Source: Escherichia phage vB_VIPECOMC06
Sequence record: PQ416618.1
Direction: 5' to 3' (one strand)
Length of the DNA: 64,000 nucleotides
The translations under genes were made by a program, and so were the position numbers. The notes beneath the pieces were generated by a model, which was not told the origin of the DNA, did no database searches, and saw nothing but the letters and a program-made list of their open reading frames with translations. Positions 7,893-60,486 of this stretch are shown here, piece by piece. Each line of letters starts with the position of its first letter. The stretch's first letter is position 1.

Positions 7893-8351
7893 ATGACTAT
7901 CAATTCTGACGTTTTTATCCGCCGTAATAAACTCCGTCGAATCTTTGAAACGGAGTTCCGCAAAATAAATGCCGGTATAAAAGATGCTGCAAAGTCTCTT
8001 GGAATACCAGGCTTTCATATCAAGTATTCTCAACATCTCTTAGATCGTGCTATCCAGAGAGAAATAGATGAGAACTACGTTTTTGAATTATTTCGTAAAG
8101 TAAAAAATCATGTTAAAGAAGTTGCAGAATTTTTATCAATGCCGGCACGTCCAGATGTTGATGAAGATTTTGTCGAAGGTGTTGAATATCGCCCAGGCCG
8201 TTTAGAAATAACTGACGGAAATCTTTGGTTAGGACTTACAGTTTGTCGCGAAAATCCAGCATTCAAAATGAAGACTCTTCAATGCAGAATGGCTATTATT
8301 AACAGTAAACGACTACCAGGAAAAGCTTCTAAAGCAGTGATTAAAATCTAG
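7893..8351 (+). CDS. regB: RegB-like sequence-specific endoribonuclease
   Basis: MTINSDVFIRRNKLRR...HLLDRAIQREIDE...EYRPGRLEITDGNLWLG resembles T4 RegB as recalled; size ~152 aa; correct locus between denV and tk. Confidence 0.7.
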   Translation: MTINSDVFIRRNKLRRIFETEFRKINAGIKDAAKSLGIPGFHIKYSQHLLDRAIQREIDENYVFELFRKVKNHVKEVAEFLSMPARPDVDEDFVEGVEYRPGRLEITDGNLWLGLTVCRENPAFKMKTLQCRMAIINSKRLPGKASKAVIKI

Positions 8352-8359: not shown

Positions 8360-8902
8360 ATGAGAAAAGCACTACTCGCTGGTCTATTTGCTCTTTCATT
8401 ATCAGCACATAGCTCCGAGCATACTTTTAGTAATGTCCAACTCGATAACTTGAATTATGCTTATCAGTTTGGGGAACAGTTTTCTAAGGACGGAAAATTT
8501 AAAACGCATGAAAATATGCATAAGAAAGGACTTGGATACATAATGGCCGCAATACTATGGCAGGAATCATCTGCCGGTATTAATCTTAAAGATAAGAAAG
8601 GTCACCATGCGTATGGAATGTTCCAAAATTATCTACCAACAATGAGGGCAAGAATTAACCAGCTTGGTTATAATATGACTGATGCCCAAATTAAGAAAAT
8701 GCTATCTAAGCGGTCTAATTCAGCCAGATGGGCTTATATCGAATTTTCTTATTGGTTAAATATACATAACGGGGATATAAGAAAAGCTATATCCTCATAT
8801 AATGCGGGATGGAAGACGAGTGCTGGAAGTAAATATGCTTCTGAAGTCCTAGAAAAGGCTAATTACCTTAAATCAAACAAACTACTGGAAATAAAAGAAT
8901 GA
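8360..8902 (+). CDS. secreted protein, possible lytic transglycosylase-like
   Basis: Signal peptide MRKALLAGLFALSLSAHS; QESS...GxxQ motif region; family assignment tentative. Confidence 0.45.
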   Translation: MRKALLAGLFALSLSAHSSEHTFSNVQLDNLNYAYQFGEQFSKDGKFKTHENMHKKGLGYIMAAILWQESSAGINLKDKKGHHAYGMFQNYLPTMRARINQLGYNMTDAQIKKMLSKRSNSARWAYIEFSYWLNIHNGDIRKAISSYNAGWKTSAGSKYASEVLEKANYLKSNKLLEIKE

Positions 8903-9915: not shown

Positions 9916-10097
9916 GTTTAAGCAAAGAACAAAAAGACAAACTCTTTTCTCTTATCCATGAAGTTATGGATAAAAATAGTGAATTGGAAAAAGTTTGTAA
10001 TGAATGCGGTCCTTTTAGTGCAAACGAGTACGAAGAACTTTCTAAAGAATTCGATAATAAAGAGCAAGAACTCATTGATTATATAAATTCCTTATGA
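9906..10097 (+). CDS. hypothetical protein (~61-63 aa)
   Basis: Overlapping start region with upstream stop (ATG at 9906 or 9912). Confidence 0.4.
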   Translation: MAMSLSKEQKDKLFSLIHEVMDKNSELEKVCNECGPFSANEYEELSKEFDNKEQELIDYINSL

Positions 10098-10291
10098 TTA
10101 CTCGCAAACAAAAGAACGAAATATTATTTTTAGTTAGTGAAATTGTTAGTTTAGAAAAGGATTTGTCTTTTGAAATATCTTCTGAATACGGAGATGCCGA
10201 AACATATTACGAATTAGTAAAATCTATCGATAAAGCTGAAAATGATTTAGAAACATATTTAGAAAATTTAACTAAGGACTCTTATGGCTAG
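10094..10291 (+). CDS. hypothetical acidic protein (65 aa)
   Basis: ATGA coupling. Confidence 0.4.
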   Translation: MITRKQKNEILFLVSEIVSLEKDLSFEISSEYGDAETYYELVKSIDKAENDLETYLENLTKDSYG

Positions 10292-16407: not shown

Positions 16408-16935
16408 ATGAACGCTAAAGATATTTTCAACCTGGTAAATTATAACGACGGTAAATTTAAATCTGAAGCACAAAGCAAGTTCTTTAATGACGTTGCTTAT
16501 GGTAACGAGATTACCGTGGACGGAGGTCAGATTTTCAAATCTCGCTGGAATTGGATTGTTATCATCGATTCAGTTGGAATTGTGGAAGTCTACAAAAACA
16601 CTAACAAAAAACGTACATTATTCTGGTCTCGTGAAACTAACGAGCAGTACAAAAAGGATAAAGCATCTCGTTTATCTAAAGTAACCCAGGAAGATATCGA
16701 GTTTATCAAGAAAGATATCGAGATGTACGAAAATTTAATCGCTGAAGACCAGGCAGTACTCGATAAGTTTGATGAAATTAAAGCTTCTCGTGAAATCCCT
16801 GACTTCATGAAAGAAACAGTAAACGAACGATACGCTCTCACTTCAGAACGTATTGCAAACTATACAAAACAGAAAGCAGAACGTATTAGTACTCTTCGGA
16901 AATTTGAAGAACGTTTAAAGACGGTTCACGCATAA
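16408..16935 (+). CDS. hypothetical protein (175 aa)
   Basis: SD GGAGG; downstream of promoter cassette. Confidence 0.45.
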   Translation: MNAKDIFNLVNYNDGKFKSEAQSKFFNDVAYGNEITVDGGQIFKSRWNWIVIIDSVGIVEVYKNTNKKRTLFWSRETNEQYKKDKASRLSKVTQEDIEFIKKDIEMYENLIAEDQAVLDKFDEIKASREIPDFMKETVNERYALTSERIANYTKQKAERISTLRKFEERLKTVHA

Positions 16936-16997
16936 ACGCTTTACCCAAGGACGGGTTATAATGGTTCTGAGTTCCAATTAAATCTGAGGAAATAGTT

Positions 16998-17993
16998 ATG
17001 AGCATTACATCTGATGCGGTAAAACATGAAATTAACGGTTTATGTGCTTCACAGATTAAAGTGTGGTTTAAAGACCATAATGATCGCAGAGCACTTAATT
17101 ATGAGCAAATTGCTATCCAAGTTCATCAATTACTGACTAGTAAATTTGATTTTCATATGCCGTCTGAAATCTATACTAATCTACCGCGAGCGCTTATTAA
17201 AGCGTGTAAAGGTTATGGAAAATCAATGGCTGATGGAATCTTCAGCGCGCTGAATAAACTTAACGTTCTGTCGATGATTAACTCTAACAACATCCTGCGT
17301 AATCTAGGACGTACTGATTTGTTCGGTCGTGAACAGTGTAAAATGCCTTTGAAATGGATTGTTGCTCATCTTAACGAGAACCAAACACGTTTTATGGCTG
17401 TATCAGCACGCTTACAAATGGGCCTAGATCGTCAGATGAACTTTAAAACTCATCCACGTTATTCAGGTTCAACAGACTTTTATAAATGTGAGCTTCAAAA
17501 GGTTGCAGGTAAAACTGTCTTAGTAGTTCGTGTAACGTTTGAAGGACGACGTCAAGGATATTTTGACCTAATCGGCTCTGGTCTTAAACATTGTGGATTT
17601 ATTGACGAAGTTGATATCAAGCGAGACAGCATTGGATACCGTATTGGATATGTTTGTACTCTTAAAGAAGAGATTTCAGGACCAGTACCAGGACTAAAAG
17701 ACGTTAGATATAAAGACGAGCTCGTTGAAGAAATAAAAGAAGTTGAATATGATATCAACCAAGAAGATGCTCTTAAAGACCTTATTGATGAACTAAACCA
17801 AGACGTTATTCCGGTTCAGAAATTTGAATCAAAACATGCTGAGCAAATCAAATACTTTGAAGCTTTGATTAACGAACTTAATGTAACTATTCAACAGACT
17901 GACGATGAAATCTCGCGATTAGCAGGCTTAAACGGTAAAAATAAAACGGAACGAGCTAATCTTATTCAGGTAGTAAAACTTCTTAAGGAATGA
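16998..17993 (+). CDS. hypothetical protein with C-terminal coiled coil (331 aa)
   Basis: SD GAGGAAA; heptad-like C-terminus. Confidence 0.5.
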   Translation: MSITSDAVKHEINGLCASQIKVWFKDHNDRRALNYEQIAIQVHQLLTSKFDFHMPSEIYTNLPRALIKACKGYGKSMADGIFSALNKLNVLSMINSNNILRNLGRTDLFGREQCKMPLKWIVAHLNENQTRFMAVSARLQMGLDRQMNFKTHPRYSGSTDFYKCELQKVAGKTVLVVRVTFEGRRQGYFDLIGSGLKHCGFIDEVDIKRDSIGYRIGYVCTLKEEISGPVPGLKDVRYKDELVEEIKEVEYDINQEDALKDLIDELNQDVIPVQKFESKHAEQIKYFEALINELNVTIQQTDDEISRLAGLNGKNKTERANLIQVVKLLKE

Positions 17994-18022
17994 TGTACAA
18001 CCAAGGATGGTTGGAGTATAAT
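17994..18022 (+). promoter_or_regulatory. repeated promoter cassette CAACCAAGGATGGTTGGAGTATAAT (copy 1)
   Basis: TGTACA -35-like, palindrome CAACCA-AGGA-TGGTTG, -10 TATAAT. Confidence 0.55.
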
Positions 18023-18048
18023 AAATTTTTCAACATGAGGAATATAAA

Positions 18049-18981
18049 ATGGCTTTTATTACACGTAGAGAACTTATCAAAGAATTTACCTCGAACGCAT
18101 ATACTCCAGGACCTAATCCTATCCGTATGCCTGTAAAGACTCCTGAAGAGATTGAGGAAATCTGTTCATATTATGGGATTAATTCTCGTAAGTTTACTCA
18201 ATTTGAATGCGTTACTAACACACCCGTTAAAGAGTTCATTAAAAATGGTGAGTTCAGCCGTTTATTAGCCAAACAGAAACTTCGTAATTTTTGTATCGGC
18301 GGTGAAGGACAATATTTCGCTAAGCAGTTCAGGAATAACCTTAACAATCTGATGGCCATTGCTTCTCGTATTCGTCCTCAAGCAATTAACATGAAACATT
18401 TGAAATATACTTACGATAAGTTAGAAATCATGGTTATCAGTGAGAACGAGTTCACTCTTAAGTATAAACCTAAGAATGATAACGTTGCTCGTGTATTCCA
18501 CCAAGCGTTGGAAGTTTTAGGTGATAATATCCACCAGATTAAAGCAATTTATTCTCGTGAGCTTAATATTATCGACCCTATCAAGAATAAGGGCCATATC
18601 GCTATCCAGGCTCGTGTATCTATTGGTAAAAAGGTTCCTGCGCCATGGTGGCACAAAGACTCTGAATATTATAAAAATCTTAAAAAGGAAAATGCAACGT
18701 TTGAAGCGTCAATTATTGTCGCCCCGACTATCGGTAAGATTAACGCAGCTTCAGCACAACCTGTTATGTTTAACGGCACGTCTTCGACTAAACTGGAAAT
18801 CTCTAATGGTCTTCTTCCTGCCGAAGATTACTATTATAATCAAATCAAAGCCACTGTGGACCAACTGTCTGTTGAACTTGACAAAGCACAAGCTAAGCTT
18901 CGTGATGCTCAACAAGTAGTTACCAAGCTCCAGTTGCAGTACTCTAAACTTTTTAACGCAATGAATGCATTAAAATCATAA
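18049..18981 (+). CDS. hypothetical protein with C-terminal coiled coil (310 aa)
   Basis: Preceded by CAACCAAGGATGGTTGGAGTATAAT cassette; C-terminal LDKAQAKLRDAQQVVTKLQLQ. Confidence 0.5.
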   Translation: MAFITRRELIKEFTSNAYTPGPNPIRMPVKTPEEIEEICSYYGINSRKFTQFECVTNTPVKEFIKNGEFSRLLAKQKLRNFCIGGEGQYFAKQFRNNLNNLMAIASRIRPQAINMKHLKYTYDKLEIMVISENEFTLKYKPKNDNVARVFHQALEVLGDNIHQIKAIYSRELNIIDPIKNKGHIAIQARVSIGKKVPAPWWHKDSEYYKNLKKENATFEASIIVAPTIGKINAASAQPVMFNGTSSTKLEISNGLLPAEDYYYNQIKATVDQLSVELDKAQAKLRDAQQVVTKLQLQYSKLFNAMNALKS

Positions 18982-18985
18982 ATCA

Positions 18986-19015
18986 GTTTACAACCAAGGA
19001 TGGTTGGAGTATAAT
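18986..19015 (+). promoter_or_regulatory. repeated promoter cassette (copy 2)
   Basis: GTTTAC, CAACCAAGGATGGTTGG, TATAAT. Confidence 0.6.
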
Positions 19016-19043
19016 CTTTCTATCTTAACGAGAGGAAAATATT

Positions 19044-19994
19044 ATGACACGTTCACATTACATTGATTATTTTGCAGGTCTTATCGCTAACGTTCATGCC
19101 CAACGTGCTTCTGGTTCATTAGGATTTGATGTTCCACACCGAGTTGTAGTAAGTGGTATTCTTCGCGATTTTGGTACATACACAGGCCAAGAAAATCATA
19201 TCTGTAAAGATACTCAGAATGCGTATTCTCATTCATTAGGGACACTGCTTCAATGGTTCAAACGTTCTCGTTTATTATCTTCTACTGTAGCTCGCGATAA
19301 CATTAAAAACTTTATGAAGCCGAGCTTTATTAAATCTGTGACATCTAAAACCGATTTGGTTGAATTTACTATTATTAACGATGTTAAAAAGACTCATTTA
19401 GCTGATTGGTTATCTACCATTCCTGAAACTAAATTTGCTGATAAATTTGCTTGTGAATTCAATAACCAAGTGAATATGCTTTTTAAACATTCTCGTAAAT
19501 TATTCACAGGTGGCGATGATCGTACAAATAAAGTTCATGTTAAAGATTGGGTTACTGCAGTATTCAAACCGACCGGTAATGGTAACGCATCATTGTCAAT
19601 TGATATCCAGGTTCCGTATTACTACTCACGTAATCTCGGCACCATGAAAGCTGAAGAAATTAAGAAGCACAACAAAACCATTCGTTCGCTGTCTTATAAA
19701 CTTCGCATGATGTTAAGAATCATGGACGTGGTAGAAATGTATGATGAAACCGAAGATAACGGTTCAATGTTATTCAGTTCTCGTATTCAAATTAAGCTGA
19801 AGAACCCTAACGAGTATAAGCCTAAGCCTATTAAAGAGACTAAAGCAGAAAAAGCTGATAATTTAAGAGAAGAACGCGAATATCTCAAATCTCGTCTGAA
19901 AGAAGTCGAAGCCCAGATTGCAGAACAAACTAAATCATTAAAAGCTCTGAATGCAAAAGCTGATGGTTTACGAAATGCTATTGAGGTTTTATAA
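19044..19994 (+). CDS. hypothetical protein with C-terminal coiled coil (316 aa)
   Basis: Preceded by the same promoter cassette; C-terminal LKSRLKEVEAQIAEQTKSLKALNAKADGL. Confidence 0.5.
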   Translation: MTRSHYIDYFAGLIANVHAQRASGSLGFDVPHRVVVSGILRDFGTYTGQENHICKDTQNAYSHSLGTLLQWFKRSRLLSSTVARDNIKNFMKPSFIKSVTSKTDLVEFTIINDVKKTHLADWLSTIPETKFADKFACEFNNQVNMLFKHSRKLFTGGDDRTNKVHVKDWVTAVFKPTGNGNASLSIDIQVPYYYSRNLGTMKAEEIKKHNKTIRSLSYKLRMMLRIMDVVEMYDETEDNGSMLFSSRIQIKLKNPNEYKPKPIKETKAEKADNLREEREYLKSRLKEVEAQIAEQTKSLKALNAKADGLRNAIEVL

Positions 19995-20299
19995 TGAAAC
20001 TACGTCTTTTAGAGGATATTGATATGAGCACTAATCACGGCTTGGTTAAGTTTATTGACGATAGTTCAAAGATTGAATTTGTTCAGCGAGATAAAATCCA
20101 CGGTGAAGAAGAGTTCGTTCCTCCGGCATGGAACGAAATCATGAAAATGGTTGAACGACGTGAAAATGCTGCCAAATCGGCAGCAAAACATCCGTGCCCG
20201 GAATGTGGAACTATCCAAGTCCAACTGGTTAACTGGACCACTGATAACTTGAAATTGAAATGCCGTAAATGCTTCCACAAATTTGAGAGAACATTATAA
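19994..20299 (+). CDS. zinc-ribbon protein (101 aa)
   Basis: CPECG...CRKCFH four-Cys motif. Confidence 0.45.
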   Translation: MKLRLLEDIDMSTNHGLVKFIDDSSKIEFVQRDKIHGEEEFVPPAWNEIMKMVERRENAAKSAAKHPCPECGTIQVQLVNWTTDNLKLKCRKCFHKFERTL

Positions 20300-20712
20300 T
20301 GAGATATAGCCTTCGTTGTTTTATCGCAGCTTTAGTTTTTGCCATCATTCCATTCATTTGGAACAGCCAGAATACTTACATGGAAACTAAAGTAATTCCT
20401 GTGGAGGTAGTGGAATTAATCTCAGGCCAATCTACAGGAAAATATTCTAAATTGGAATTTATTGCAGTTTATAAAGATGAACAAGGTCGAGTTTTTGACA
20501 GGCATGTATCACCGTCGTTTTATACGCTTCTGAATAAAGGTGATACGATAGCTATAGAAATTCGTGAGATGGATATCAAACAAACTACTAAAGATAACTT
20601 GATTTGGTTCTTTGGTACAGTGTTGTTGGTTTCTATCTGTATCACAGGTTTTATTACATGTATTGTATTTGGCATTACATATTTAATCGATGAAAGGAAA
20701 AATAATGTTTAA
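20299..20712 (+). CDS. predicted membrane protein (137 aa)
   Basis: N- and C-terminal hydrophobic helices. Confidence 0.45.
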   Translation: MRYSLRCFIAALVFAIIPFIWNSQNTYMETKVIPVEVVELISGQSTGKYSKLEFIAVYKDEQGRVFDRHVSPSFYTLLNKGDTIAIEIREMDIKQTTKDNLIWFFGTVLLVSICITGFITCIVFGITYLIDERKNNV

Positions 20713-27313: not shown

Positions 27314-27381
27314 TGCACAAACTCTTGAGAGCAGAGTATAATGCTCTCTCATTGGATAATAAAATAACCGAGGAAAATAAT

Positions 27382-28211: not shown

Positions 28212-28250
28212 TGCTTTAAGATAGGTCTCTAAATATTATGATATAATAGA
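28212..28250 (+). promoter_or_regulatory. putative middle/early promoter with inverted repeat upstream of gene 55
   Basis: MotA-box-like TGCTTTA; ATAGGTCT / AGACCTAT arms flanking TATGATATAAT. Confidence 0.4.
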
Positions 28251-28276
28251 CCTATGAATTGAGCTAAGAGGTACTT

Positions 28277-31321: not shown

Positions 31322-33006
31322 AATCATTTAAATTAAATCGTGTTCGTTATCAAAACATCATGTCGGTAGGTGGGAATCCTATTGACATCCAATTAGATAA
31401 AGTCCAAAAGACATTAATCACTGGTAAAAATGGTGGTGGTAAATCTACGATGTTAGAAGCCATTACTTTCGGACTTTTCGGTAAACCATTTCGTGATGTT
31501 AAGAAAGGGCAAATCATTAATAGCACGAACAAGAAAGAGCTCTTAGTTGAGCTTTGGATGGAATTTGATGGTAAAAAATACTTCATTAAACGTGGCCAAA
31601 AGCCCAATATTTTCGAAATCTCCGTTGACGGTGTTCGTCTCGATGAATCTGCCAGCAGTCGTGACTTCCAAGAAGAATTTGAACGTAGCATCGGAATGTC
31701 ATACGCGTCTTTTAAACAAATCGTTGTGCTTGGGACGGCAGGGTATACCCCTTTCATGGCTCTTAGCACCCCTGCTCGCAGAAAACTTGTCGAAGACCTT
31801 TTAGAAGTCGGCACACTCGCTGAAATGGATAAAATCAATAAGTCTCAAGTTCGAGAACTTAATTCCCAAGGACAAGTTCTCGATGCCAAGAAAGATGGTA
31901 TTATCCAACAAATTAAGATTTATAACGAGAATATCGAACGTCAAAAGAAATTATCTGGTGATAATGTAGCGCGTCTACAGAATATGTATGACGACCTAGC
32001 CAAAGAAGCTCGTTCATTAAAAGCAGAAATCGAAGAAGCTAACGAGCGTCTACTTAATATCGTTCTTGACGAAGACCCTACTGAGGCATTCAACAAGATA
32101 GGACAAGAAGCATTCTTGATTAAATCTAAAATTGACTCATATAATAAAGTTATTAAGATGTATCATGATGGTGGTACATGTCCTACTTGTGCATCACAGT
32201 TGCACCAGGGTGATCCTATTGTCTCTAAGATTACCGATAAGCTTCATGAATGTAATCACTCATTCGAGCAACTTACCTGTCACAGAGATAATCTGAGTGT
32301 CCTAGTGGACGAATATAGAGCTAATGTTAAGACTAAACAGGACCTTGCATCTGATATTCGTACTAAGAAACAAGCAATGATTGCCACTATTGATAAAGCT
32401 AAGAAAGTTAAAGCTGCAATAGAACAAGCCTCAGCGGAATTTATCGACCATGCTGATGAGATAGCTTTGCTTCAAAAAGAACTTGATAAAATCATTAAAA
32501 CAAAATCGGATATCGTTCTTGAAAAATACCATCGTGGTATTATCACAGATATGTTAAAAGATTCCGGTATTAAAGGTGCTATCATTAAAAAATATGTGCC
32601 TCTGTTCAACAAGCAGATTAACTATTATCTTAAAATCATGGAAGCTGATTATGTGTTTTCTATTGACGAAGAATTCAATGAATCTATAAAATCACGTGGT
32701 CGTGAAGATTTTAGTTATGCTTCATTTAGTCAAGGTGAAAAGGCACGTATCGATATCGCATTGTTGTTTACATGGCGAGATATTGCTGAAAAGGTCTCTG
32801 GTGTTAAAATCAACACTCTGATTCTTGATGAGGTTTTTGATGGTGCTGTCGATTCTGAGGCTGTTAAGGCTATAGATACCATTCTTGGAAGTTTACAAAA
32901 TACTAATGTGTTCATTATCTCTCATCGAGACCATGACCCTCAACGTTATGGACAACATCTTCAAATGAGCAAAGTTGGACGATTTACGGTAATGACTGTT
33001 TCATAA
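31318..33006 (+). CDS. 46: recombination endonuclease subunit gp46 (Rad50/SbcC-like)
   Basis: Walker A GKNGGGKST, central coiled coil with Zn-hook-like CPTC, C-terminal signature/Walker B LILDEVFDG; 562 aa. Confidence 0.9.
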   Translation: MKSFKLNRVRYQNIMSVGGNPIDIQLDKVQKTLITGKNGGGKSTMLEAITFGLFGKPFRDVKKGQIINSTNKKELLVELWMEFDGKKYFIKRGQKPNIFEISVDGVRLDESASSRDFQEEFERSIGMSYASFKQIVVLGTAGYTPFMALSTPARRKLVEDLLEVGTLAEMDKINKSQVRELNSQGQVLDAKKDGIIQQIKIYNENIERQKKLSGDNVARLQNMYDDLAKEARSLKAEIEEANERLLNIVLDEDPTEAFNKIGQEAFLIKSKIDSYNKVIKMYHDGGTCPTCASQLHQGDPIVSKITDKLHECNHSFEQLTCHRDNLSVLVDEYRANVKTKQDLASDIRTKKQAMIATIDKAKKVKAAIEQASAEFIDHADEIALLQKELDKIIKTKSDIVLEKYHRGIITDMLKDSGIKGAIIKKYVPLFNKQINYYLKIMEADYVFSIDEEFNESIKSRGREDFSYASFSQGEKARIDIALLFTWRDIAEKVSGVKINTLILDEVFDGAVDSEAVKAIDTILGSLQNTNVFIISHRDHDPQRYGQHLQMSKVGRFTVMTVS

Positions 33007-33046
33007 ACGCTTTAACACGATGTGGTTATAATGACCACATCAAATT
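33007..33046 (+). promoter_or_regulatory. putative middle promoter with hairpin after gene 46
   Basis: CGCTTTA box, TATAAT 13 bp downstream, inside ATGTGGT-TATAATG-ACCACAT hairpin. Confidence 0.4.
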
Positions 33047-41717: not shown

Positions 41718-42103
41718 TGCACCGTGTAAAAAACATGCTTAATCTTTGTTTTGATGTCGATGATTGTATAACAGAGTGGAATAACAATCGTGATTACGTG
41801 AACTTCAAACCAGACGTCGAAATGGTATCTGCCATTAATGCTCTGTATGATGCAGGGCATACCATAACGCTTTACACTGCTCGCGGTATGAAGTCAGTCG
41901 GTCCTGGTCGTATAGCAATCGACATTCTCCCAAGTCTGATTCAGAACTTGGCAAACATTGGCTTGAAGTACCATAATTTGCTAACACATAAACCAGTATA
42001 TGATTGGATTATCGACGACAAAGCTATGCGTCCTGACGAATTCAAAGCTCTTATGAATAAAGGCGAATTCGAAACATTTAAATCATATAAACCGAATCTA
42101 TAA
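41717..42103 (+). CDS. HAD-superfamily phosphatase (KdsC-like)
   Basis: HAD motif I FDVDDCITE, motif II TLYTARG, motif III K (THKPVYD), motif IV IIDDKA; start uncertain (41717 or 41735). Confidence 0.65.
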   Translation: MHRVKNMLNLCFDVDDCITEWNNNRDYVNFKPDVEMVSAINALYDAGHTITLYTARGMKSVGPGRIAIDILPSLIQNLANIGLKYHNLLTHKPVYDWIIDDKAMRPDEFKALMNKGEFETFKSYKPNL

Positions 42104-42157
42104 TAATTTAAGTAAGACCTGCAAAAACCATCGCAACAATTAACGCGAGATGCAAAA

Positions 42158-43318
42158 ATGAATACCTTTAAAATCGGAACGAATTTTGATTTAGCTCTTC
42201 TTGATAAAATCGTAGAGCTCAATAAAACTTATCCTAATAGCTTGATAAACGAAGTATACGGCTCTACAAGAGAAATGGCTTTTGTAGCAGCCAGACCTGA
42301 TTTTAGGCTTCCTGACGTTGACAAAAAGATGTTAGAAGATTACGTTAAACGTTGTAACGAATTAGGTATTTGCTTTAACTATACACTCAACACGATAAAT
42401 CCTGGTTCAAAAAGAGAACTAGTTGAGTGGAAGAAGAAAGCTATTCAGGATTATGTTCAGTATCTTTGGTCAATAGGCGTATGGCGTATTACTATCGCTA
42501 ACCCTGTTGTTATGGAAATTGTTCGTGAAGTCAATAAAGACATTGAGATTGAAGTTTCAACAATTCTACATGTCGATGCTGTAACTCAAATCAAATACTT
42601 GCATGACCAGTATAATATCAAAAAGGTCTGCTGTGGAATTCATAAGAACCGTTCAGTTTCTTTCCTGAAGCGTGCAGCAGAGTTTTGCAATAAGAACAAT
42701 ATAATATTTGAAGTTCTTGTAAATGAGTTCTGTTCTAATGCTGGTAAAGGGTATACAACACATTGTAGTTATCGTGACTCTTGCTATATTTTCCATAGCA
42801 CCGATGTTACAGTAGATGATGCCAAATCCTTAAATGGATATCCAATGCAACACTGCATTAAAGCTCGTGATACAGACCCATTTAACTGGTTGAGAACTCG
42901 TTTTGTTCGTCCTCAAGATTTGAAACTTTATAATGATATTGGTATCACTCAATTTAAAGTTTCTGGACGTACAGGTAGCACCGACTACATTTTGAAAGTT
43001 CTTGAAGCTTATGCTTCTGAAAAGTTTGAAGGTAATTTGTTAGAACTGTGGAAGCCTTTAGAGACTATTTTCACTCTTGAAAACGAAACTGAGTTTTCAC
43101 ATACGGTAAATATTGAAACCTCTTTGTTAGATGGCTTTTTAGAAAAAAGGTGGTTCAAACATCCAGATTTCGATTGTGCTAATGAAATCTGTGGGACGAC
43201 GTGTACATATTGTGAAAGATATTATAAACGTCAGTTATCTAAAAACGGGTTATCAGAAAATTCTATATCTATTATTGATATAACTAACTCTGATGACGCT
43301 TTGAGGTACCCAGAATGA
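42158..43318 (+). CDS. Cys-rich enzyme of unknown function (386 aa)
   Basis: Cys cluster EFCSNAGKGYTTHCSYRDSC and C-terminal CANEICGTTCTYC; weak resemblance to the TIM-barrel peptidase-U32 (RlhA/UbiU) pattern; part of the sugar-nucleotide cassette. Confidence 0.55.
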   Translation: MNTFKIGTNFDLALLDKIVELNKTYPNSLINEVYGSTREMAFVAARPDFRLPDVDKKMLEDYVKRCNELGICFNYTLNTINPGSKRELVEWKKKAIQDYVQYLWSIGVWRITIANPVVMEIVREVNKDIEIEVSTILHVDAVTQIKYLHDQYNIKKVCCGIHKNRSVSFLKRAAEFCNKNNIIFEVLVNEFCSNAGKGYTTHCSYRDSCYIFHSTDVTVDDAKSLNGYPMQHCIKARDTDPFNWLRTRFVRPQDLKLYNDIGITQFKVSGRTGSTDYILKVLEAYASEKFEGNLLELWKPLETIFTLENETEFSHTVNIETSLLDGFLEKRWFKHPDFDCANEICGTTCTYCERYYKRQLSKNGLSENSISIIDITNSDDALRYPE

Positions 43319-43458
43319 TTTCTAGAAAAACTTTTAACCACCAACTTAATGAAGAGATTTTGACTATTAAAATTAACAGCAACGAACAAATTCTTAAACA
43401 GGCCCATAAGGGCCTGTTTGAAACTAAAGCGGCTAAAGTGATTAAAGAACCTAACTAG
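43315..43458 (+). CDS. hypothetical small ORF (47 aa)
   Basis: ATGA-coupled to upstream gene; contains CAGGCCC-ATAA-GGGCCTG hairpin; may be noncoding. Confidence 0.2.
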   Translation: MISRKTFNHQLNEEILTIKINSNEQILKQAHKGLFETKAAKVIKEPN

Positions 43459-43591
43459 AATACTACGCTGATGCATTTCTTCATAGTGTTCTTGGAAGTA
43501 TCGATGCCGAAGCTTTACGTTATATCAACATCGCTAAGAAATTCAAATAAGCTTTATGAATTGAGTATATAATAACTGTATTGAGGTAAAC

Positions 43592-44308
43592 ATGGGAAAA
43601 CATAACACAATGAAATATATTAAAGCCGCAGATTTTCAATCCGCATTTAAAGCAGTCAATCGTGAAATTTTAGAAAACCCGGAATTCGTAACTGATTCTC
43701 GTATTGGACGTTGTAATGAAATTGGGTCTATGACAGTAGTTGTTGACACTCCATCTTCATTCAAAATGACCGATCCACGTATTAACCGCATCTCTTATGA
43801 ATATGCTGAAGATTTCTGGAAGTTTATGATTTCTGGTGGTACTGATGCAGAAGAAGCATTTAAGGCATATCCTAACGTTGCTAAATTTATTTCTAAACCT
43901 AAATCAGACGCTTTGCCTGCAAACTTCAACACTTTCTATGGTCCACGAATTGCGGCCCAGTTACCAGCTCTTTTAAAAGAACTTAAAGAGAAACCTAACT
44001 CCCGAAGAGTTGTGTTCCAAATTCTTGAAAGTTCAGATCAGGCTTTGCTTGATTCAGACGAAACACTTGAATATCCATGTACTGACTCAGTGACTTATTA
44101 TATTCGTGATGGTAAGCTTTATACCCACTGTCATATGCGTTCACAGAACTGTGCTGTTGTTATGCAGTTGGATTTTTATCTCCAAGGAAAATTACTTCAT
44201 TATATCGCTAAAGAATGTGGTGTAGAAGTTGGTGATTATACTCATACCATGGTAAGTGCCCATGTGTTTGAACGTGATTTTGATTATGTTAAAGGATTCC
44301 TTGACTAA
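43592..44308 (+). CDS. 42: thymidylate-synthase-fold pyrimidine hydroxymethylase (dCMP hydroxymethylase-like)
   Basis: TS-family pattern NSRR, catalytic Cys in YPCTDSVTYYIRDGK, MRSQN; position of gene 42 between 43 and uvsX; N-terminal half differs from T4 gp42 as recalled. Confidence 0.6.
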   Translation: MGKHNTMKYIKAADFQSAFKAVNREILENPEFVTDSRIGRCNEIGSMTVVVDTPSSFKMTDPRINRISYEYAEDFWKFMISGGTDAEEAFKAYPNVAKFISKPKSDALPANFNTFYGPRIAAQLPALLKELKEKPNSRRVVFQILESSDQALLDSDETLEYPCTDSVTYYIRDGKLYTHCHMRSQNCAVVMQLDFYLQGKLLHYIAKECGVEVGDYTHTMVSAHVFERDFDYVKGFLD

Positions 44309-45207
44309 TGGCTATTTTCCGCGTACCTATCTTGAGTATGCGGTCTTATGAAACTGGACAGTATGCTATCCTTAAGGATGGCAACTTCCAACTTCATTTG
44401 CACCGTGCTAATCCAGGTGATGTGATTACATATCCACGTAATGCATCTGATATTAAAGAATGCGAACGTCTTTTCCCAGAATTTAAGTTTGTTCCATTAT
44501 GGTATAAAGATAACGCGTATAACACTCGTAAATATTTCTGGTCTGAAAATGAATTTGTGGTTGATTCATTAATTGATTATTATGATTGTGATTTTCTAAT
44601 CACAGATATCACTGGATATGACGGCGCTTTTGATGTGGAATTCAATTTCAATATCACTGCAGACCCTAATAAACCACGTTTTTATATTGACGAATTCTTA
44701 AAAACCGACATGTTGTCTGTTAATCGTTCACTTCAAACTACTGTGTTGAATGAACGTCAAAAAGAAGTGCTGGTTAACGCAGGTGCAGATGGTAATAAGA
44801 TTATCGTAACCCAGAAAGTTATACGTCCTTCCATCATGCAGCGTCTTGTAGGTGATTTGGCTCCTATTCATCTAGATGGTATTTTTCATCCATTTCGAAT
44901 TAGTGACCCATGCTATCGTTTTGAACAAGTGGTTGAATGCGCAATTCAATTAGGCCAACCGCTTTATATAACCGATCCAAATAATAGCTTCGACAGAAAT
45001 AAGTATCCTGAAGAAGCGCTGATTCGAATTTTTAATCCAACTAAAACTGAGTACTATCAAATTCTTAAAGGACGTCCGAAGATTCAATATTTCGAAAATC
45101 CTGAAGAAGTATTCCATCCAGGTCTTGGTGAGTTCATCTACTTTAATGCTTTAATTTCTTCGCCGTATAATATACCTAAATATGAAGATGTCGTAATCGA
45201 GGAATAA
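44308..45207 (+). CDS. hypothetical protein in the beta-gt slot (299 aa); candidate DNA sugar transferase
   Basis: TAATG-coupled to gene 42; occupies the locus where T4 has beta-glucosyltransferase; no motif recognised. Confidence 0.5.
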   Translation: MAIFRVPILSMRSYETGQYAILKDGNFQLHLHRANPGDVITYPRNASDIKECERLFPEFKFVPLWYKDNAYNTRKYFWSENEFVVDSLIDYYDCDFLITDITGYDGAFDVEFNFNITADPNKPRFYIDEFLKTDMLSVNRSLQTTVLNERQKEVLVNAGADGNKIIVTQKVIRPSIMQRLVGDLAPIHLDGIFHPFRISDPCYRFEQVVECAIQLGQPLYITDPNNSFDRNKYPEEALIRIFNPTKTEYYQILKGRPKIQYFENPEEVFHPGLGEFIYFNALISSPYNIPKYEDVVIEE

Positions 45208-45208
45208 A

Positions 45209-45757
45209 ATGGCTAAAATTATTTTAGTAGATGGCCCGGATAATGCCGGTAAAACAACTTTCATTAATGACATAATGGAAATTAGTGAAAGATATGTAAA
45301 GATTGATTTCCCTAAACGAACAGTTGATGGACGTTTCGATGTTAAGTCTCGAAATGAAGTTGGCTGTTTCGAAACGATGTTGAATTATTTAGACCCTACT
45401 AAGATTTATCTGTTAGACCGTGGATATATTAGTAACTGGGTTTATGGACGTATTCGACAAGATGCGGACTCGGTTCTTGACGTTTATGAACAGGATTATG
45501 TTCGTCTTTGCCAAAACCATGATGTGTTCACAATTATTTTAACACGTAACGAAATGACTGAAAGTTTTGAAGACGACCTTATTACTTTGTCTTCATTCGG
45601 TTTTAATACAGTCATTTCATATTTTGAAGAGTTTGCAATTCATAACAAAATTCAAACGTATCAATTACTTAATCATGATGGTGCTAACAAAGTTATAGGA
45701 TTTAATGCAAGCGAACGTAATAATTTGATTACAGAAATTATCAAATGGGCTCGTTAA
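45209..45757 (+). CDS. P-loop nucleoside/nucleotide kinase-like protein (182 aa)
   Basis: Walker A ILVDGPDNAGKTT, LLDRGY; resembles dNK/TMK-type kinases, not T4 gp1. Confidence 0.55.
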   Translation: MAKIILVDGPDNAGKTTFINDIMEISERYVKIDFPKRTVDGRFDVKSRNEVGCFETMLNYLDPTKIYLLDRGYISNWVYGRIRQDADSVLDVYEQDYVRLCQNHDVFTIILTRNEMTESFEDDLITLSSFGFNTVISYFEEFAIHNKIQTYQLLNHDGANKVIGFNASERNNLITEIIKWAR

Positions 45758-45856
45758 GAGCCTGTTTAAAGTTTTAAATGCTGTATAACCGTTAGTATAT
45801 AATCGTCTTATCTTTTAAACATGAGTAAAATATAATGATGCCTATGGAAAAATACA

Positions 45857-47029: not shown

Positions 47030-47363
47030 TCTCGATGATTTAAATCTAGAAATCGTTGATGAATCCCCTTCTTCGGAAGGGGAAGACATTCGCAAAGAAC
47101 GAGTGTTTAATGAATCTCTTAAAATTATCCGTTCAGCAATGGAAAATGTCATTCAAGAGATTCTGATTACACTTGAAGATGGTTCTCATCATATAGTCTA
47201 TATTACAAAACTAGACTGGGTTGATGGTAAAATCGTAATGGACTTTGCAGTTCTTGACCAGGACAGAAAAGCAGAACTTGCACCACATGTTGAAAAATGT
47301 GTTACAATGCAAGTACAACAAGCTTTTAATGAACGGGCCAAGAAAAAATTTAAATTCTTTTAA
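47022..47363 (+). CDS. 40: gp40-like protein (head vertex assembly accessory)
   Basis: Small ORF between uvsX and gene 41 as in T4; ATG at 47022 overlapping uvsX end. Confidence 0.55.
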   Translation: MNNLDDLNLEIVDESPSSEGEDIRKERVFNESLKIIRSAMENVIQEILITLEDGSHHIVYITKLDWVDGKIVMDFAVLDQDRKAELAPHVEKCVTMQVQQAFNERAKKKFKFF

Positions 47364-47372
47364 GGAGTTATC

Positions 47373-48815: not shown

Positions 48816-48821
48816 TAAAAA

Positions 48822-48840
48822 GGAGACTTCGGTCTCCTTT
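48822..48840 (+). terminator. rho-independent terminator after gene 41
   Basis: GGAGAC-TTCG-GTCTCC followed by TTT. Confidence 0.65.
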
Positions 48841-48844
48841 CGGG

Positions 48845-48875
48845 GTTTACATCTTCCTCTAGGCATGATATGATA
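48845..48875 (+). promoter_or_regulatory. early promoter
   Basis: GTTTAC, TGATATGAT. Confidence 0.5.
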
Positions 48876-48903
48876 TACTTACACTAACCAAGAGGAGAAC
48901 AAA

Positions 48904-49406: not shown

Positions 49407-49419
49407 TTTTAAAATAACT

Positions 49420-49449: not shown

Positions 49450-49477
49450 CTTTCTATCAACTACAGAGGAAATTGAA

Positions 49478-50513: not shown

Positions 50514-50514
50514 T

Positions 50515-59542: not shown

Positions 59543-59572
59543 GTTTACAACCAAGGATGGTTGGAGTATAAT
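59543..59572 (+). promoter_or_regulatory. repeated promoter cassette (copy 3)
   Basis: GTTTAC, CAACCAAGGATGGTTGG, TATAAT; same sequence as at 18986. Confidence 0.6.
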
Positions 59573-59601: not shown

Positions 59602-60057
59602 ATGATTACTATTGGTGAAATTAAGTATGTATCGCCTGTATCTCGTTCTAAAGCTGCAGGACGATTGGTTGAAGTGGTGGGACTTCGCACAAATGGCATG
59701 GGACGCATTAAAGAAGTTAAAGTTCGAATCATTCATAACTCCGGGCAAAAAGATGTTCAGTTCGCTTATGTAAGTCCTAAATTCTTGGAAACTCCTGCGA
59801 GCGCTCATTCTGCTTCTACCGAACCTAATGTACAGTTCAAATGGGCCCTTTGCAAAGGCGTTGAATTTATAACCGATAAAGAATTTGATTACATCGACGA
59901 ATACGGTTATCCAAGCAAAACTGATACTATGTGTGGCTTCATTAGTGACCAATGGGTTGAAGATGGTGAAAAGCTATACAATATCGTATTCTTAGGTGAC
60001 TTCCGAGTTGTTAAAGAATCTGAAATCACTCGCTATGTGTCTCCTCGTAAAGCTTAA
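59602..60057 (+). CDS. hypothetical protein (151 aa), tandem paralog A
   Basis: Shares FKWxLC..GFISDxWVEDGxKLYNIVF with the next ORF. Confidence 0.5.
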   Translation: MITIGEIKYVSPVSRSKAAGRLVEVVGLRTNGMGRIKEVKVRIIHNSGQKDVQFAYVSPKFLETPASAHSASTEPNVQFKWALCKGVEFITDKEFDYIDEYGYPSKTDTMCGFISDQWVEDGEKLYNIVFLGDFRVVKESEITRYVSPRKA

Positions 60058-60066
60058 GGAATTATT

Positions 60067-60486
60067 ATGAATATTGTAAATCTCTCTACAGGTGATTACG
60101 TATATGTATCTGTTGCTTCTCACTCTAAAGTTGCCGGGAAGTTGGTTGAAGTTCTTTCTGTGAGTGATCCGGTTTTTGGACGTAACCAAGTTAAAGTTCG
60201 TGATGCTAATGGTAATATTGGTTACGTTAAAAGCCAATTCATTGAACCAGAAGAAAAAGCGTTCAAATGGGGACTATGCAGATCAGTTTCTGTTGAAAAA
60301 GACCATGAATTCACTATTGCTGCGGCAACTGATGGAACACCGTGGAAAACTAAGCAAATCGCCGGATTTATTAGCGACCGTTGGGTAGAAGATGGTGTTA
60401 AGCTTTATAACATCGTTTTCGCTGGACAGTTCATGGTAGTTCCTGAATTCCAAATTAAAAAATATAGCCCAGCTGCTTTCGCATAA
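60067..60486 (+). CDS. hypothetical protein (139 aa), tandem paralog B
   Basis: Paralog of the ORF at 59602. Confidence 0.5.
   Translation: MNIVNLSTGDYVYVSVASHSKVAGKLVEVLSVSDPVFGRNQVKVRDANGNIGYVKSQFIEPEEKAFKWGLCRSVSVEKDHEFTIAAATDGTPWKTKQIAGFISDRWVEDGVKLYNIVFAGQFMVVPEFQIKKYSPAAFA

What the first reader, a model, noticed from the sequence alone, without database searches (positions are those of the whole stretch)
16998..19994. Three tandem ~310-330 aa coiled-coil-tailed proteins, each behind a promoter cassette (two copies identical)
The ORFs at 16998, 18049 and 19044 each end in a heptad-rich C-terminus. The latter two are each preceded by the 25-mer CAACCAAGGATGGTTGGAGTATAAT, and a third copy of that cassette sits at 59543. 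This looks like promoter-plus-gene modules that have been duplicated or shuffled.
Basis: seen in the sequence. Interest (0 to 1): 0.55.

Follow-up and report, generated by a model that had tools for sequence, protein, structure and literature searches.

The report
Paralog array behind mobile promoter cassettes
Three neighbouring early genes of an RB69-like T4-type coliphage are very old duplicates of one coiled-coil-tailed protein family (a T4 member disarms the bacterial Dsr1 defence). Two of them, plus a distant gene, sit behind an identical short promoter that holds a small conserved hairpin and marks where related phages have gained or lost genes, a variant of the known 'PeSL' cassettes.

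Summary
ORFs 16998-17993, 18049-18981 and 19044-19994 are real, conserved genes: the Mosigvirus homologs of T4 nrdC.6, nrdC.5 and nrdC.3. The 25-mer occurs exactly three times, at 17998, 18991 and 59548 (not 59543), against none expected by chance.

The three proteins show no pairwise BLAST similarity. Profile-profile comparison with homologs from five genera joins them, together with T4 NrdC.4, into one superfamily (hhalign 87-96%, E 1e-6 to 2e-9; reversed and unrelated controls E >= 0.09). So they are ancient paralogs. T4 NrdC.5 counteracts Dsr1, and neighbouring genes inhibit OLD and Septu, so an anti-defence role is likely but inferred.

The 25-mer is a T4-type early promoter (TTTACA-N17-TATAAT). 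Its spacer holds a 6-bp hairpin with an invariant AGGA loop. ORF1 instead has a MotA-type promoter with the same hairpin, orthologous to the mapped T4 promoter PnrdC.7. The stems covary between T4, Mosigvirus and Dhakavirus.

Related phages differ by whole genes exactly at these cassettes, and the flanks are mosaic. This matches the published PeSL concept, except that the hairpin lies inside the promoter and is not terminator-like. The hairpin's own function is unknown; it resembles a CsrA binding site.

The parts
16934..16962 (+). MotA-type middle promoter in front of ORF1. It has a MotA-box-like AAACGCTTTA (16934-16943), the hairpin ACCC-AAGGAC-GGGT (16943-16956) and the -10 TATAAT (16957-16962).
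   Evidence: Sequence. It is orthologous to the T4 nrdC.8>nrdC.7 intergenic GCTTTA-TACCAAGGATGG-TATAAT. The start site predicted for that T4 element, 7 nt after the -10, equals the mapped PnrdC.7 start at 53325.
16998..17993 (+). ORF1, 331 aa, NrdC.6 homolog with a weaker, interrupted coiled-coil tail.
   Evidence: JS09 annotation. phrog_2257 at E 3e-127. 29% identity to T4 NrdC.6, E 6e-19. hhalign against the merged NrdC.3/4/5/B profile gives 96.3%, E 1.8e-9.
17994..18022 (+). Early-promoter cassette, copy 1. It has -35 TGTACA (17994-17999), hairpin CAACCA-AGGA-TGGTTG (17998-18013), GAG, and -10 TATAAT (18017-18022).
   Evidence: 10 of 12 consensus positions, 17-nt spacer.
18049..18981 (+). 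ORF2, 310 aa, NrdC.5 homolog (Pfam DUF7235) with a strong C-terminal heptad region.
   Evidence: Pfam PF23882 at E 4.6e-110. phrog_2351. 24% identity to T4 NrdC.5, E 6e-10. Heptad test. T4 NrdC.5 counteracts Dsr1 (PMC9391042).
18987..19015 (+). Early-promoter cassette, copy 2. It has -35 TTTACA (18987-18992), hairpin (18991-19006) and -10 (19010-19015).
   Evidence: In one search it is the best sigma-70-like site of the region (11 of 12, 17-nt spacer).
19044..19994 (+). ORF3, 316 aa, NrdC.3 homolog with a strong C-terminal heptad region.
   Evidence: phrog_1435. 57% identity to T4 NrdC.3. Heptad test. The AlphaFold model ends in helix 270-315.
59544..59572 (+). Early-promoter cassette, copy 3, between dexA and the first of two MotB-like paralogs.
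   Evidence: Its 5' flank equals that of cassette 1 in L032, and its 3' flank equals that of cassette 2 in L032.
59602..60486 (+). Two tandem MotB-like paralogs (59602-60057 and 60067-60486) served by cassette copy 3.
   Evidence: phrog_1671 at E 5e-62 and 4.5e-50.

Best explanation
The window comes from a Mosigvirus, an RB69/JS09-like T4-type coliphage. ORF1, ORF2 and ORF3 are its nrdC.6, nrdC.5 and nrdC.3 genes. They are non-essential early or middle genes in a hyperplastic stretch that is emerging as an anti-defence island.

The three proteins are ancient paralogs. Together with T4 NrdC.4 and the ~330-aa proteins found at the same position in Winkler-, Jiaoda- and Karam-like phages, they form one superfamily. 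Its members share a helical N-terminal part, an alpha-alpha-beta-beta-beta-alpha-beta-beta core, a variable linker and a C-terminal coiled coil. I infer that the coiled coil makes oligomers and that the fast-evolving globular part binds a host target. At least one family member (T4 NrdC.5) neutralises the SIR2-type defence Dsr1.

Each gene has its own promoter packed into a 55-65 nt intergenic gap:
- ORF1 has a MotA-dependent middle promoter.
- ORF2, ORF3 and the distant MotB-like gene share one sigma-70 early promoter (TTTACA-N17-TATAAT).
- In all four, the spacer holds a short hairpin with an invariant A-AGGA-U/C loop and freely covarying stems.

Because the cassettes are identical over 27-46 nt, they act as portable patches of homology. 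T4-type recombination between them deletes, inserts or swaps the gene lying between two cassettes and homogenises the cassettes themselves. This is the mechanism published for PeSLs. Here the composite element is more compact, since the hairpin lies inside the promoter, and the hairpin is not a terminator.

Shown here: gene identity, paralogy, promoter anatomy, hairpin covariation and cassette-bounded indels. Inferred: anti-defence function, oligomerisation, promoter activity of the 25-mer, the recombination mechanism, and what the hairpin does.
For: Identity and context.
- 98.5% DNA identity to Mosigvirus genomes.
- The JS09 annotation names these genes nrdC.6, nrdC.5 and nrdC.3, and T4 has the same order plus nrdC.4.

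Families.
- DUF7235 and three PHROGs.
- The families are narrow.

Paralogy.
- hhalign C5 vs C3/4: 91.6%, E 8e-7.
- hhalign C3/4 vs the 'B' proteins: 95.6%, E 1e-8.
- hhalign C6 vs the merged profile: 96.3%, E 1.8e-9 over 215 collinear columns.
- Without the last 65 residues the matches are still 82-95%.
- Reversed-sequence controls give E 0.09-0.63, and an unrelated neighbouring family gives E >= 0.12.
- Both AlphaFold models show the same order of secondary-structure elements.
- Foldseek places Serratia-phage 'B' proteins right after ORF3's own family.

Function lead.
- NrdC.5 acts against Dsr1, gp49.2 against OLD, and NrdC.1 against Septu.

Promoter.
- The consensus scan finds the cassettes.
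- The T4/PST early consensus TTTACW-N17-TAYWAT is quoted.
- The mapped PnrdC.7 start coincides with the T4 cassette.

Hairpin.
- Every AGGA-loop hairpin with a stem of 5 bp or more sits in one of these promoters: 3 in the window and 4 in 150 kb of T4.
- Across 9 distinct versions, 92.6% of cells are paired against 63% in shuffles, with 15 double-sided changes against 5.6 and 0/500 shuffles as good. Slid controls give 22-43%.

Shuffling.
- L032 and phiE142 carry dexA-[cassette]-extra gene-[cassette]-motB-like, where the window has one hybrid cassette.
- nrdC.4 is present or absent between cassettes, and nrdC.7 is relocated.
- The flanks CTTT/GAAT + CTATCTTAAC are mosaic between the two loci.
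Against: - Pairwise BLASTP among the three proteins is negative. Shallow profiles were also negative. Paralogy therefore rests on small alignments (Neff about 2-5) that I built locally.
- Both AlphaFold models are of low confidence (pLDDT 55.6 and 40.6), so a shared fold is not shown structurally.
- PHROGs and Pfam keep the three families apart.
- The window's NrdC.5 is only 24% identical to the T4 protein that was tested against Dsr1, so the function may differ.
- No experiment shows that the 25-mer fires. The region as a whole holds no more promoter-like sites than shuffles do (22 vs 24).
- The hairpin is weak (-5.3 kcal/mol) and in context is not more stable than shuffles (z -0.6 to -1.4).
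- Some of the hairpins used for the covariation count were found by searching for stems, which inflates the paired fraction.
- In published PeSLs the stem-loop lies upstream of the -35 and acts as a terminator. Neither holds here.
Confidence: 0.7

Rival explanations
1. The conserved hairpin is an RNA element recognised by the host regulator CsrA. It is present only on read-through transcripts from upstream promoters, because the cassette's own start lies downstream of it. A CsrA dimer would bridge the hairpin GGA and the GGA of the downstream Shine-Dalgarno sequence, setting translation or stability of the next gene differently on read-through and promoter-proximal mRNAs. Alternatively the sites could titrate CsrA. 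This is compatible with the recombination role rather than opposed to it.
For: - The invariant columns of the 9 hairpins are CAAGGA.G, with GGA in the loop.
- The T4 versions read ACAAGGAUGU, which is the full core of the SELEX consensus RUACARGGAUGU. The U/C variation matches the CsrB repeat CAGGA(U/A/C)G.
- CsrA prefers short stems and hexaloops and can bridge sites 10-63 nt apart (review PMC7652899). The downstream Shine-Dalgarno GGA lies 34 nt (ORF2) and 36 nt (ORF3) away.
- An invariant loop with covarying stems is the signature of loop-specific recognition.
- The loop's distance to the -10 differs between cassettes, so it is unlikely to be an RNA polymerase contact.
- ANGGAN-loop hairpins number 16 on the + strand, 5 on the - strand, and 6.3 +/- 2.6 in shuffles.
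Against: - The match is a resemblance noticed after the fact, and no binding data exist.
- The window's version has CCA...GG instead of the SELEX-invariant ACA...GU.
- There are only 3-4 sites per genome.
- AGGA is also simply Shine-Dalgarno-like and purine-rich.
- I found no literature linking CsrA to T4-type phage gene control.
Confidence: 0.2
2. The hairpin is an mRNA processing and 3'-end protection element. RegB would cut the GGAG that directly follows the hairpin. The upstream cistron would then end in a protective hairpin, and the two cistrons would be separated.
For: - GGAG follows the hairpin in the 25-mer, in IME08, in the L040 type and in T4 nrdC.4>nrdC.3. It also follows an unrelated UUCG hairpin at window 36385.
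- A RegB homolog (77% identity to T4 RegB) is encoded at 7893-8345.
- The hairpin starts 4-10 nt after the upstream stop codon.
Against: - The T4 cassettes upstream of nrdC.4, rIIA.1 and nrdC.7, and the window's ORF1 cassette, have no GGAG.
- A purely protective hairpin would not need an invariant loop. T4-type phages normally use UUCG loops for that.
- The stem is weak.
Confidence: 0.12
3. The dyad is a double-stranded DNA operator for a dimeric phage or host regulator that sits between -35 and -10 and switches these promoters off.
For: - The 6-4-6 dyad lies exactly in the spacer, the classical repressor position.
- Early transcription shut-off in T4 is not fully explained (Hinton review).
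Against: - The half-sites covary instead of being conserved: four different pair types occur at one stem position.
- The centre AGGA is not palindromic.
- The element's distance to the -10 varies by up to 6 nt between cassettes.
- A U.G-type wobble (T/G) is tolerated in the L040 type.
Confidence: 0.05
4. The three proteins are unrelated genes of similar size that converged on a coiled-coil tail. The profile matches would then be artefacts of composition.
For: - BLASTP is negative.
- The families have separate PHROG and Pfam entries.
- The structure models are poor.
Against: - Matches persist after the tail is removed, are collinear over 110-215 columns, and are absent from reversed and unrelated-family controls.
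- Direct BLAST links exist: NrdC.4 to NrdC.3 at E 5e-5, X20 gp85 to T4 NrdC.5 at E 1e-5, and UTI-K4 'b' to X20 gp85 at E 2e-7.
- The motifs LS..A...LRNF and N..h..h.A.RL are shared (alignment).
Confidence: 0.1

Closest known systems
PeSLs (promoter-early stem-loops) of T4-type phages (Arbiol et al. 2010, PMC2839356; Comeau et al. 2014, PMC4122927)
   Same: - A short composite element made of a sigma-70-type early promoter and a stem-loop, followed by a Shine-Dalgarno sequence and ATG.
- Repeated with high identity in the hyperplastic regions.
- Flanks non-essential genes.
- Coincides with insertions, deletions and replacements between close relatives.
- The promoter consensus given for T4/PST (TTTACW-N17-TAYWAT) is matched.
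   Different: - Here the stem-loop lies inside the 17-nt spacer and overlaps the -35, rather than lying upstream of the promoter.
- It is weak, has no U tract and is not terminator-like.
- Its loop (AGGA) is invariant. The published T4/PST stems are described as AGNA...TCNT and the RB49 stems as G-rich/C-rich.
- The same hairpin also occurs in a MotA-type middle promoter.
- Mini-circle formation was not tested.
T4 middle promoter PnrdC.7 (start site 53325; Hinton 2010 review, PMC2988021, Table 1)
   Same: - The window's ORF1 cassette is its positional and sequence ortholog: the end of nrdC.8, then GCTTTA, the CCAAGGA(T/C)GG hairpin, and TATAATGGTTCT.
   Different: - In T4 it drives nrdC.7 and then nrdC.6. 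Here it drives nrdC.6 directly, and nrdC.7 lies 3 kb downstream.
- The closing pair of the hairpin is A.C here.
- Activity in this phage was not tested.
T4 NrdC.5, the counter-defence factor against Dsr1 (Srikant et al. 2022, PMC9391042)
   Same: - ORF2 belongs to the same family (DUF7235), lies in the same position, has the same length class and has the same coiled-coil tail.
   Different: - Only 24% identity.
- The mechanism is unknown even for T4.
- ORF1 and ORF3 are only remote paralogs with no functional data.
CsrA/RsmA binding hairpins (CsrB repeats, glgC leader; review PMC7652899)
   Same: - GGA in the loop of a short hairpin.
- The core CA-R-GGA-U/C-G.
- A second GGA in a Shine-Dalgarno sequence within bridging distance.
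   Different: - The element is in a phage promoter spacer.
- The window version lacks the ACA...GU of the SELEX consensus.
- No binding evidence exists. This is a resemblance only.

Membership tests
PeSL (promoter-early stem-loop cassette) | Sigma-70-type early promoter with -35, about 17 nt of spacer and -10, followed by a Shine-Dalgarno sequence and a start codon | tested here: met
   TTTACA-N17-TATAAT at 18987-19015 and 59544-59572, and TGTACA-N17-TATAAT at 17994-18022. GAGGAA or GAGAGA precedes the ATG 27-30 nt after the -10.
PeSL (promoter-early stem-loop cassette) | Stem-loop placed just upstream of the promoter and acting as an efficient terminator | tested here: not met
   The hairpin lies inside the spacer. 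Its free energy is -5.3 kcal/mol, it has no U tract, and the terminator scan does not call it. Termination itself cannot be tested here.
PeSL (promoter-early stem-loop cassette) | Several near-identical copies per genome in hyperplastic regions | tested here: met
   3 exact copies in the window. The 32-mer is found at 1-2 places in each of 143 phage records. T4 has its own near-identical pair at positions 2450 and 50963.
PeSL (promoter-early stem-loop cassette) | Coincidence with indels or replacements between close relatives | tested here: met
   Window compared with L032 and phiE142 at the dexA locus. T4, Mosigvirus and Dhakavirus compared at nrdC.4, nrdC.3 and nrdC.7.
PeSL (promoter-early stem-loop cassette) | AT-rich (UP-like) stretch upstream of the -35 | tested here: inconclusive
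   The 20 nt upstream are the ends of the preceding genes. By my count they are about 62-74% A+T, little above the genome's own level.
PeSL (promoter-early stem-loop cassette) | Formation of mini-circles by recombination between neighbouring cassettes | not testable with these tools
   This needs inverse PCR on infected cells. Copies 1 and 2 are 993 bp apart in direct orientation.
T4 MotA-dependent middle promoter (ORF1 cassette) | MotA box (a/t)(a/t)(a/t)TGCTTtA centred near -30, 11-13 bp from a sigma-70 -10 | tested here: met
   AAACGCTTTA, then 13 nt, then TATAAT (16934-16962). There is one mismatch (C for T). It is orthologous to the mapped T4 PnrdC.7. MotA and AsiA dependence in this phage was not tested.
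NrdC.5 / DUF7235 (PF23882) | Full-length match above Pfam's gathering score | tested here: met
   ORF2 scores 368 bits against a cut-off of 30, covering profile positions 1-307 of 307.
NrdC.5 / DUF7235 (PF23882) | Neutralises Dsr1 immunity | not testable with these tools
   Shown only for T4 NrdC.5. ORF2 is 24% identical to it.
Coiled-coil tail | Heptad periodicity of hydrophobic residues over 5 or more heptads without helix breakers | tested here: met
   ORF2 and ORF3 each give 0/500 shuffles as good. ORF1 is only marginal at 36/500, with 2 Gly residues in the stretch. Long terminal helices appear in the models. The oligomeric state was not tested.
CsrA binding site | GGA in the loop of a short hairpin, flanked by ACA...GU (SELEX consensus RUACARGGAUGU) | tested here: inconclusive
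   GGA lies in the loop in every cassette. ACA...GU is present in the T4 nrdC.4 and rIIA.1 cassettes, but the window 25-mer has CCA...GG. Binding was not tested.
Intrinsic terminator | G+C-rich stem followed by a U tract | tested here: not met

The most novel reading that the evidence does not exclude
The invariant AAGGA(U/C) loop hairpin packed into these promoter spacers is a dedicated RNA signal, most plausibly a high-affinity site for the host regulator CsrA. It would exist only on read-through transcripts and not on transcripts started at the cassette's own promoter. The phage would thereby give the same gene two mRNA species with different translational fates, and would tie expression of its anti-defence paralogs to the host's Csr state, or would titrate CsrA early in infection. 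The same 16 nt would serve at once as promoter spacer, RNA signal and recombination linker.
Probability: 0.15. Interest if true: 0.75.

Novelty: new variant of a known kind. Interest (0 to 1): 0.42.

Why it matters
- It links four 'hypothetical' T4-type gene families (NrdC.3, NrdC.4, NrdC.5, NrdC.6) and their counterparts in other genera into one fast-evolving paralog superfamily. One member of it is a proven counter-defence factor. The untested paralogs therefore become concrete candidates in the search for inhibitors of bacterial immunity.
- It gives a clean, sequence-level example of how T4-type phages add, drop and exchange such genes: through 27-46-nt promoter cassettes that are kept identical by recombination.
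- It shows that the published PeSL idea also covers a more compact design, with the hairpin inside the promoter and also within a MotA promoter.
- The invariant GGA loop with covarying stems is an unexplained conserved signal, and it can be tested directly.

Tried and rejected
- Pairwise BLASTP of the three proteins showed nothing.
- hhalign with shallow family alignments (Neff 1.5) showed nothing, apart from a weak tail match. It became informative only after I added homologs from T4, IME08, ABTNLsp5, X20, UTI-K4, an Enterobacter phage and Ursula.
- A deep HMM search with the NrdC.3 profile against 1.8 billion representatives returned only 5 proteins, so no deep alignment is obtainable.
- The search for related loci with the NrdC.5 alignment found 3 loci.
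- AlphaFold on ORF3 and ORF2 gave low-confidence models (pLDDT 55.6 and 40.6).
- A mixed three-family MAFFT alignment was inspected and judged misaligned, so it was not used for prediction.
- The Foldseek search of BFVD with the poor ORF3 model gave only its own family and weak hits to Serratia-phage proteins.
- No relative has a solved structure.
- There were no PADLOC hits and no Rfam hits.
- The T4 GenBank and RefSeq records carry no promoter features for these sites.
- The Miller 2003 genome review, which lists the early promoters, is not held.
- Two T4 transcriptome papers do not mention these genes.
- The terminator reading of the hairpin was rejected.
- A dsDNA operator was judged unlikely because the half-sites covary and the position shifts.


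Full report
**Where the window comes from**

The 4-kb stretch around the finding is 96-98.5% identical to more than 130 Mosigvirus genomes, the RB69/JS09/phi25-307 group of T4-type coliphages. In the JS09 record the three ORFs are annotated as homologs of T4 nrdC.6, nrdC.5 and nrdC.3. T4 has the same run of genes with nrdC.4 in addition, and with nrdC.7 in a different place. Many GenBank records label these proteins 'thioredoxin'. This is a carry-over from the gene name, because no thioredoxin domain is detected.

**Checking the observation**

The ORFs are at the stated coordinates and have the stated sizes. The 25-mer occurs exactly three times, at 17998, 18991 and 59548, with no further copies even at 3 mismatches and none in 100 shuffles. 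All three copies share 27 nt, and copies 2 and 3 share 32 nt.

A simple heptad test on the last 42 residues gave these results:
- ORF2 is clearly positive: all a/d positions are hydrophobic, and 0/500 shuffles do as well.
- ORF3 is clearly positive: 83%, 0/500.
- ORF1 is marginal: 67%, 36/500, with a glycine-containing break.

The low-confidence AlphaFold models of ORF3 and ORF2 each end in one long helix.

**Are the three proteins related?**

Directly, they are not. BLASTP finds nothing. They fall into three PHROGs, and into DUF7235 plus two other Pfam families. Profiles built from close relatives alone do not match either. The families are narrow and evolve fast. The window's NrdC.5 and NrdC.6 are only 24% and 29% identical to the T4 proteins. 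An exhaustive HMM search with the NrdC.3 profile found only five representative clusters.

I therefore fetched the syntenic region, downstream of the widely conserved nrdC.10, from Dhakavirus, Winklervirus, Jiaodavirus, an Enterobacter phage and Citrobacter phage Ursula. Every genus has one to four proteins of about 300 aa at this position, in front of nrdC.2. BLAST links several of them: NrdC.4 to NrdC.3, X20 gp85 to T4 NrdC.5, and UTI-K4 'b' to X20 gp85.

With these sequences added, hhalign gives:
- NrdC.5 vs NrdC.3/4: 91.6%, E 8e-7.
- NrdC.3/4 vs the other-genus 'B' proteins: 95.6%, E 1e-8.
- NrdC.6 vs the merged profile: 96.3%, E 1.8e-9, over 215 collinear columns.

The matches survive removal of the last 65 residues, staying at 82-95%. 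They vanish with reversed sequences (E 0.09-0.63). An unrelated neighbouring family scores E >= 0.12. The two AlphaFold models are too poor for a fold comparison, but they show the same order of elements: alpha-alpha, three strands, a helix, two strands, a linker, then a long helix.

I conclude, at roughly 85% confidence, that the three ORFs are ancient paralogs.

**What they may do**

T4 nrdC.5 is an early gene whose expression restores infection of cells carrying the SIR2-type defence Dsr1 (PMC9391042). Immediately downstream in T-even phages, gp49.2 inhibits OLD (PMC13096335) and NrdC.1 inhibits Septu (bioRxiv 2025.11.20.689424). The region thus behaves as an anti-defence island.

By homology and position, I infer that the array is a set of diversified host-factor binders held together by a coiled-coil tail. 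No solved structure, defence-system profile or informative fold match was found. The mechanism is unknown.

**Anatomy of the cassette**

The 25-mer is the 3' end of a -35 hexamer, the whole 17-nt spacer and the -10 of a promoter. That promoter fits the T4/PST early consensus TTTACW-N17-TAYWAT. The -35 is TTTACA in copies 2 and 3 and TGTACA in copy 1. The spacer contains the hairpin CAACCA-AGGA-TGGTTG, followed by GAG.

ORF1 has a different promoter type: a MotA-box-like AAACGCTTTA, 13 nt, then TATAAT. It contains a related hairpin, ACCC-AAGGAC-GGGT. Its T4 counterpart (GCTTTA-TACCAAGGATGG-TATAAT) predicts a start at 53325. That is exactly the mapped start of the middle promoter PnrdC.7.

**Is the hairpin a real conserved feature?**

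Hairpins with an AGGA loop and a perfect stem of at least 5 bp are found only in these cassettes.
- The window has three such hairpins. The ORF1 cassette carries an imperfect relative: a 4-bp stem with an AAGGAC loop.
- The 150 kb of T4 that I scanned has four: upstream of nrdC.7, nrdC.4, nrdC.3 and rIIA.1. The nrdC.4 and rIIA.1 copies lie 48 kb apart and differ by one base.
- Dhakaviruses and IMG/VR contigs add further versions.

Across nine distinct versions the loop and the two inner pairs are invariant (CAAGGA.G), while the outer stem positions change in a compensating way, with up to four pair types at one position. Overall 92.6% of cells are paired against 63% in shuffles, and there are 15 double-sided changes against 5.6 (0/500). 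Slid controls give 22-43% paired.

Several of these hairpins were found by looking for stems, so the numbers are optimistic. The orthologous intergenic regions of IME08 and ABTNLsp5, which were not selected that way, show the same behaviour.

The hairpin is weak (-5.3 kcal/mol), lacks a U tract and is not terminator-like. No Rfam family matches. Its distance to the -10 differs between cassettes by up to six positions, which argues against a fixed contact with RNA polymerase. Covarying half-sites argue against a double-stranded operator.

**Evidence for shuffling**

First, at the dexA locus, contig L032 and phage phiE142 carry the following arrangement:
- dexA;
- cassette 1, whose 14 nt after the -10 are those of the window's nrdC.5>nrdC.3 cassette;
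- an extra 164-aa gene with a MotB-like C-terminus;
- cassette 2, a stem variant (CATCCA...TGGATG);
- the MotB-like gene.

The window has a single cassette there. It has the 5' flank of cassette 1 and the 3' flank of cassette 2. This is the product expected from recombination between two cassettes, or from the reverse insertion.

Second, T4 has nrdC.4 between two cassettes where Mosigviruses have one cassette and no nrdC.4. Dhakaviruses keep nrdC.4 and lack nrdC.3. nrdC.7 follows the PnrdC.7 cassette only in T4.

Third, the four bases after the -10 (CTTT or GAAT) and the next ten (CTATCTTAAC) are combined differently at the two loci in different Mosigviruses. This is a mark of ectopic conversion, and it explains why the promoters are identical while the genes are ancient.

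**Comparison with what is known**

This is the phenomenon described as PeSLs: promoter-early stem-loop cassettes that mediate modular shuffling in RB49/phi1, T4/PST and KVP40/nt-1.

The present cassettes meet four PeSL criteria: promoter type, copy number, location and association with indels. They differ in the position of the stem-loop (inside the spacer rather than upstream), in not being terminator-like, in having an invariant GGA loop, and in also occurring within a MotA promoter. I therefore file them as a variant of a known kind, not as a textbook member.

**An unexplained part, and a lead**

An invariant loop on covarying stems suggests that something reads the loop. The invariant core CAAGGA(U/C)G, with GGA in the loop of a short hairpin, resembles the binding site of the host regulator CsrA.
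- The SELEX consensus is RUACARGGAUGU, and the CsrB repeats are CAGGA(U/A/C)G.
- The T4 versions match the ten-base core exactly. The window version replaces the A-U pair with C-G.
- A second GGA lies in the downstream Shine-Dalgarno sequence, 34-36 nt away, which is within CsrA's bridging range.

The hairpin lies upstream of the cassette's own predicted start, so only read-through transcripts would carry it.

A competing idea involves RegB, whose homolog is encoded in the window. RegB would cut the GGAG that follows the hairpin in many cassettes, though not all. Neither idea could be tested here, and I rate them at about 0.2 and 0.12.

**Verdict**

It is wrong in implying that promoter and gene were copied together. 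The genes and the cassette principle are already known. What is new is the paralogy of the NrdC.3/4/5/6 families, the compact hairpin-in-spacer design, and the conserved GGA loop.

Noticed in passing
L001 (T4 42000-62000) 9997-10250, - strand: The T4 reference nrdC.6 stops early. The last ~35 residues of the family's coiled-coil tail (ISIQQYDDEIFRLSGLSSKAKSEREKLIKIVDLLKS*) are encoded in another frame, in what is annotated as the nrdC.6>nrdC.5 intergenic region. This is a frameshift either in T4 itself or in its record.
   Followed up: partly
window 33005-33045, 27315-27355, 28220-28260; L010, L013 and L014 intergenic 'a>b': Several other promoters have an inverted repeat that brackets the -10 hexamer, for example gatgtggtTATAATgaccacatc. 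The -10 therefore sits in the loop of a potential hairpin. The same design is found in Serratia, Enterobacter and Citrobacter T4-type phages.
   Followed up: no
window 14829, 29751, 36385, 47064, 48819, 54007, 62374: There are seven UUCG-tetraloop hairpins with stems of 6-9 bp, all on the + strand and none on the - strand. Most lie directly in front of promoter-like sequences. The one at 36385 is followed by TTTGGAGTATAAT, like the 25-mer.
   Followed up: no
window 8478-8499: An 8-bp stem with an AAGGAC loop (AGTTTTCT-AAGGAC-GGAAAATT) lies about 130 nt after the regB homolog (7893-8345). It has the same loop as the ORF1 cassette hairpin.
   Followed up: no
window 59602-60486; L032 1383-1877: The third cassette copy serves a second tandem paralog array: two MotB-like proteins (phrog_1671). 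phiE142-like phages have a third, more divergent paralog (phrog_2333 with a MotB-like C-terminus) between two cassettes.
   Followed up: partly
window 20299-20712: The nrdC.7 homolog (a predicted membrane protein, phrog_2547) lies after nrdC.2 here. In T4 it lies directly behind the PnrdC.7 cassette, upstream of nrdC.6.
   Followed up: no
phage records matched: Homologs of NrdC.3, NrdC.5, NrdC.6, NrdC.10 and others are widely labelled 'thioredoxin' in GenBank, and one T6 homolog is labelled 'tail sheath stabilizer'. No such domain is detectable. This is annotation carry-over.
   Followed up: partly
window, whole + strand: Hairpins with an ANGGAN hexaloop and a stem of at least 4 bp number 16 on the + strand and 5 on the - strand, against 6.3 +/- 2.6 in dinucleotide shuffles.
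   Followed up: partly
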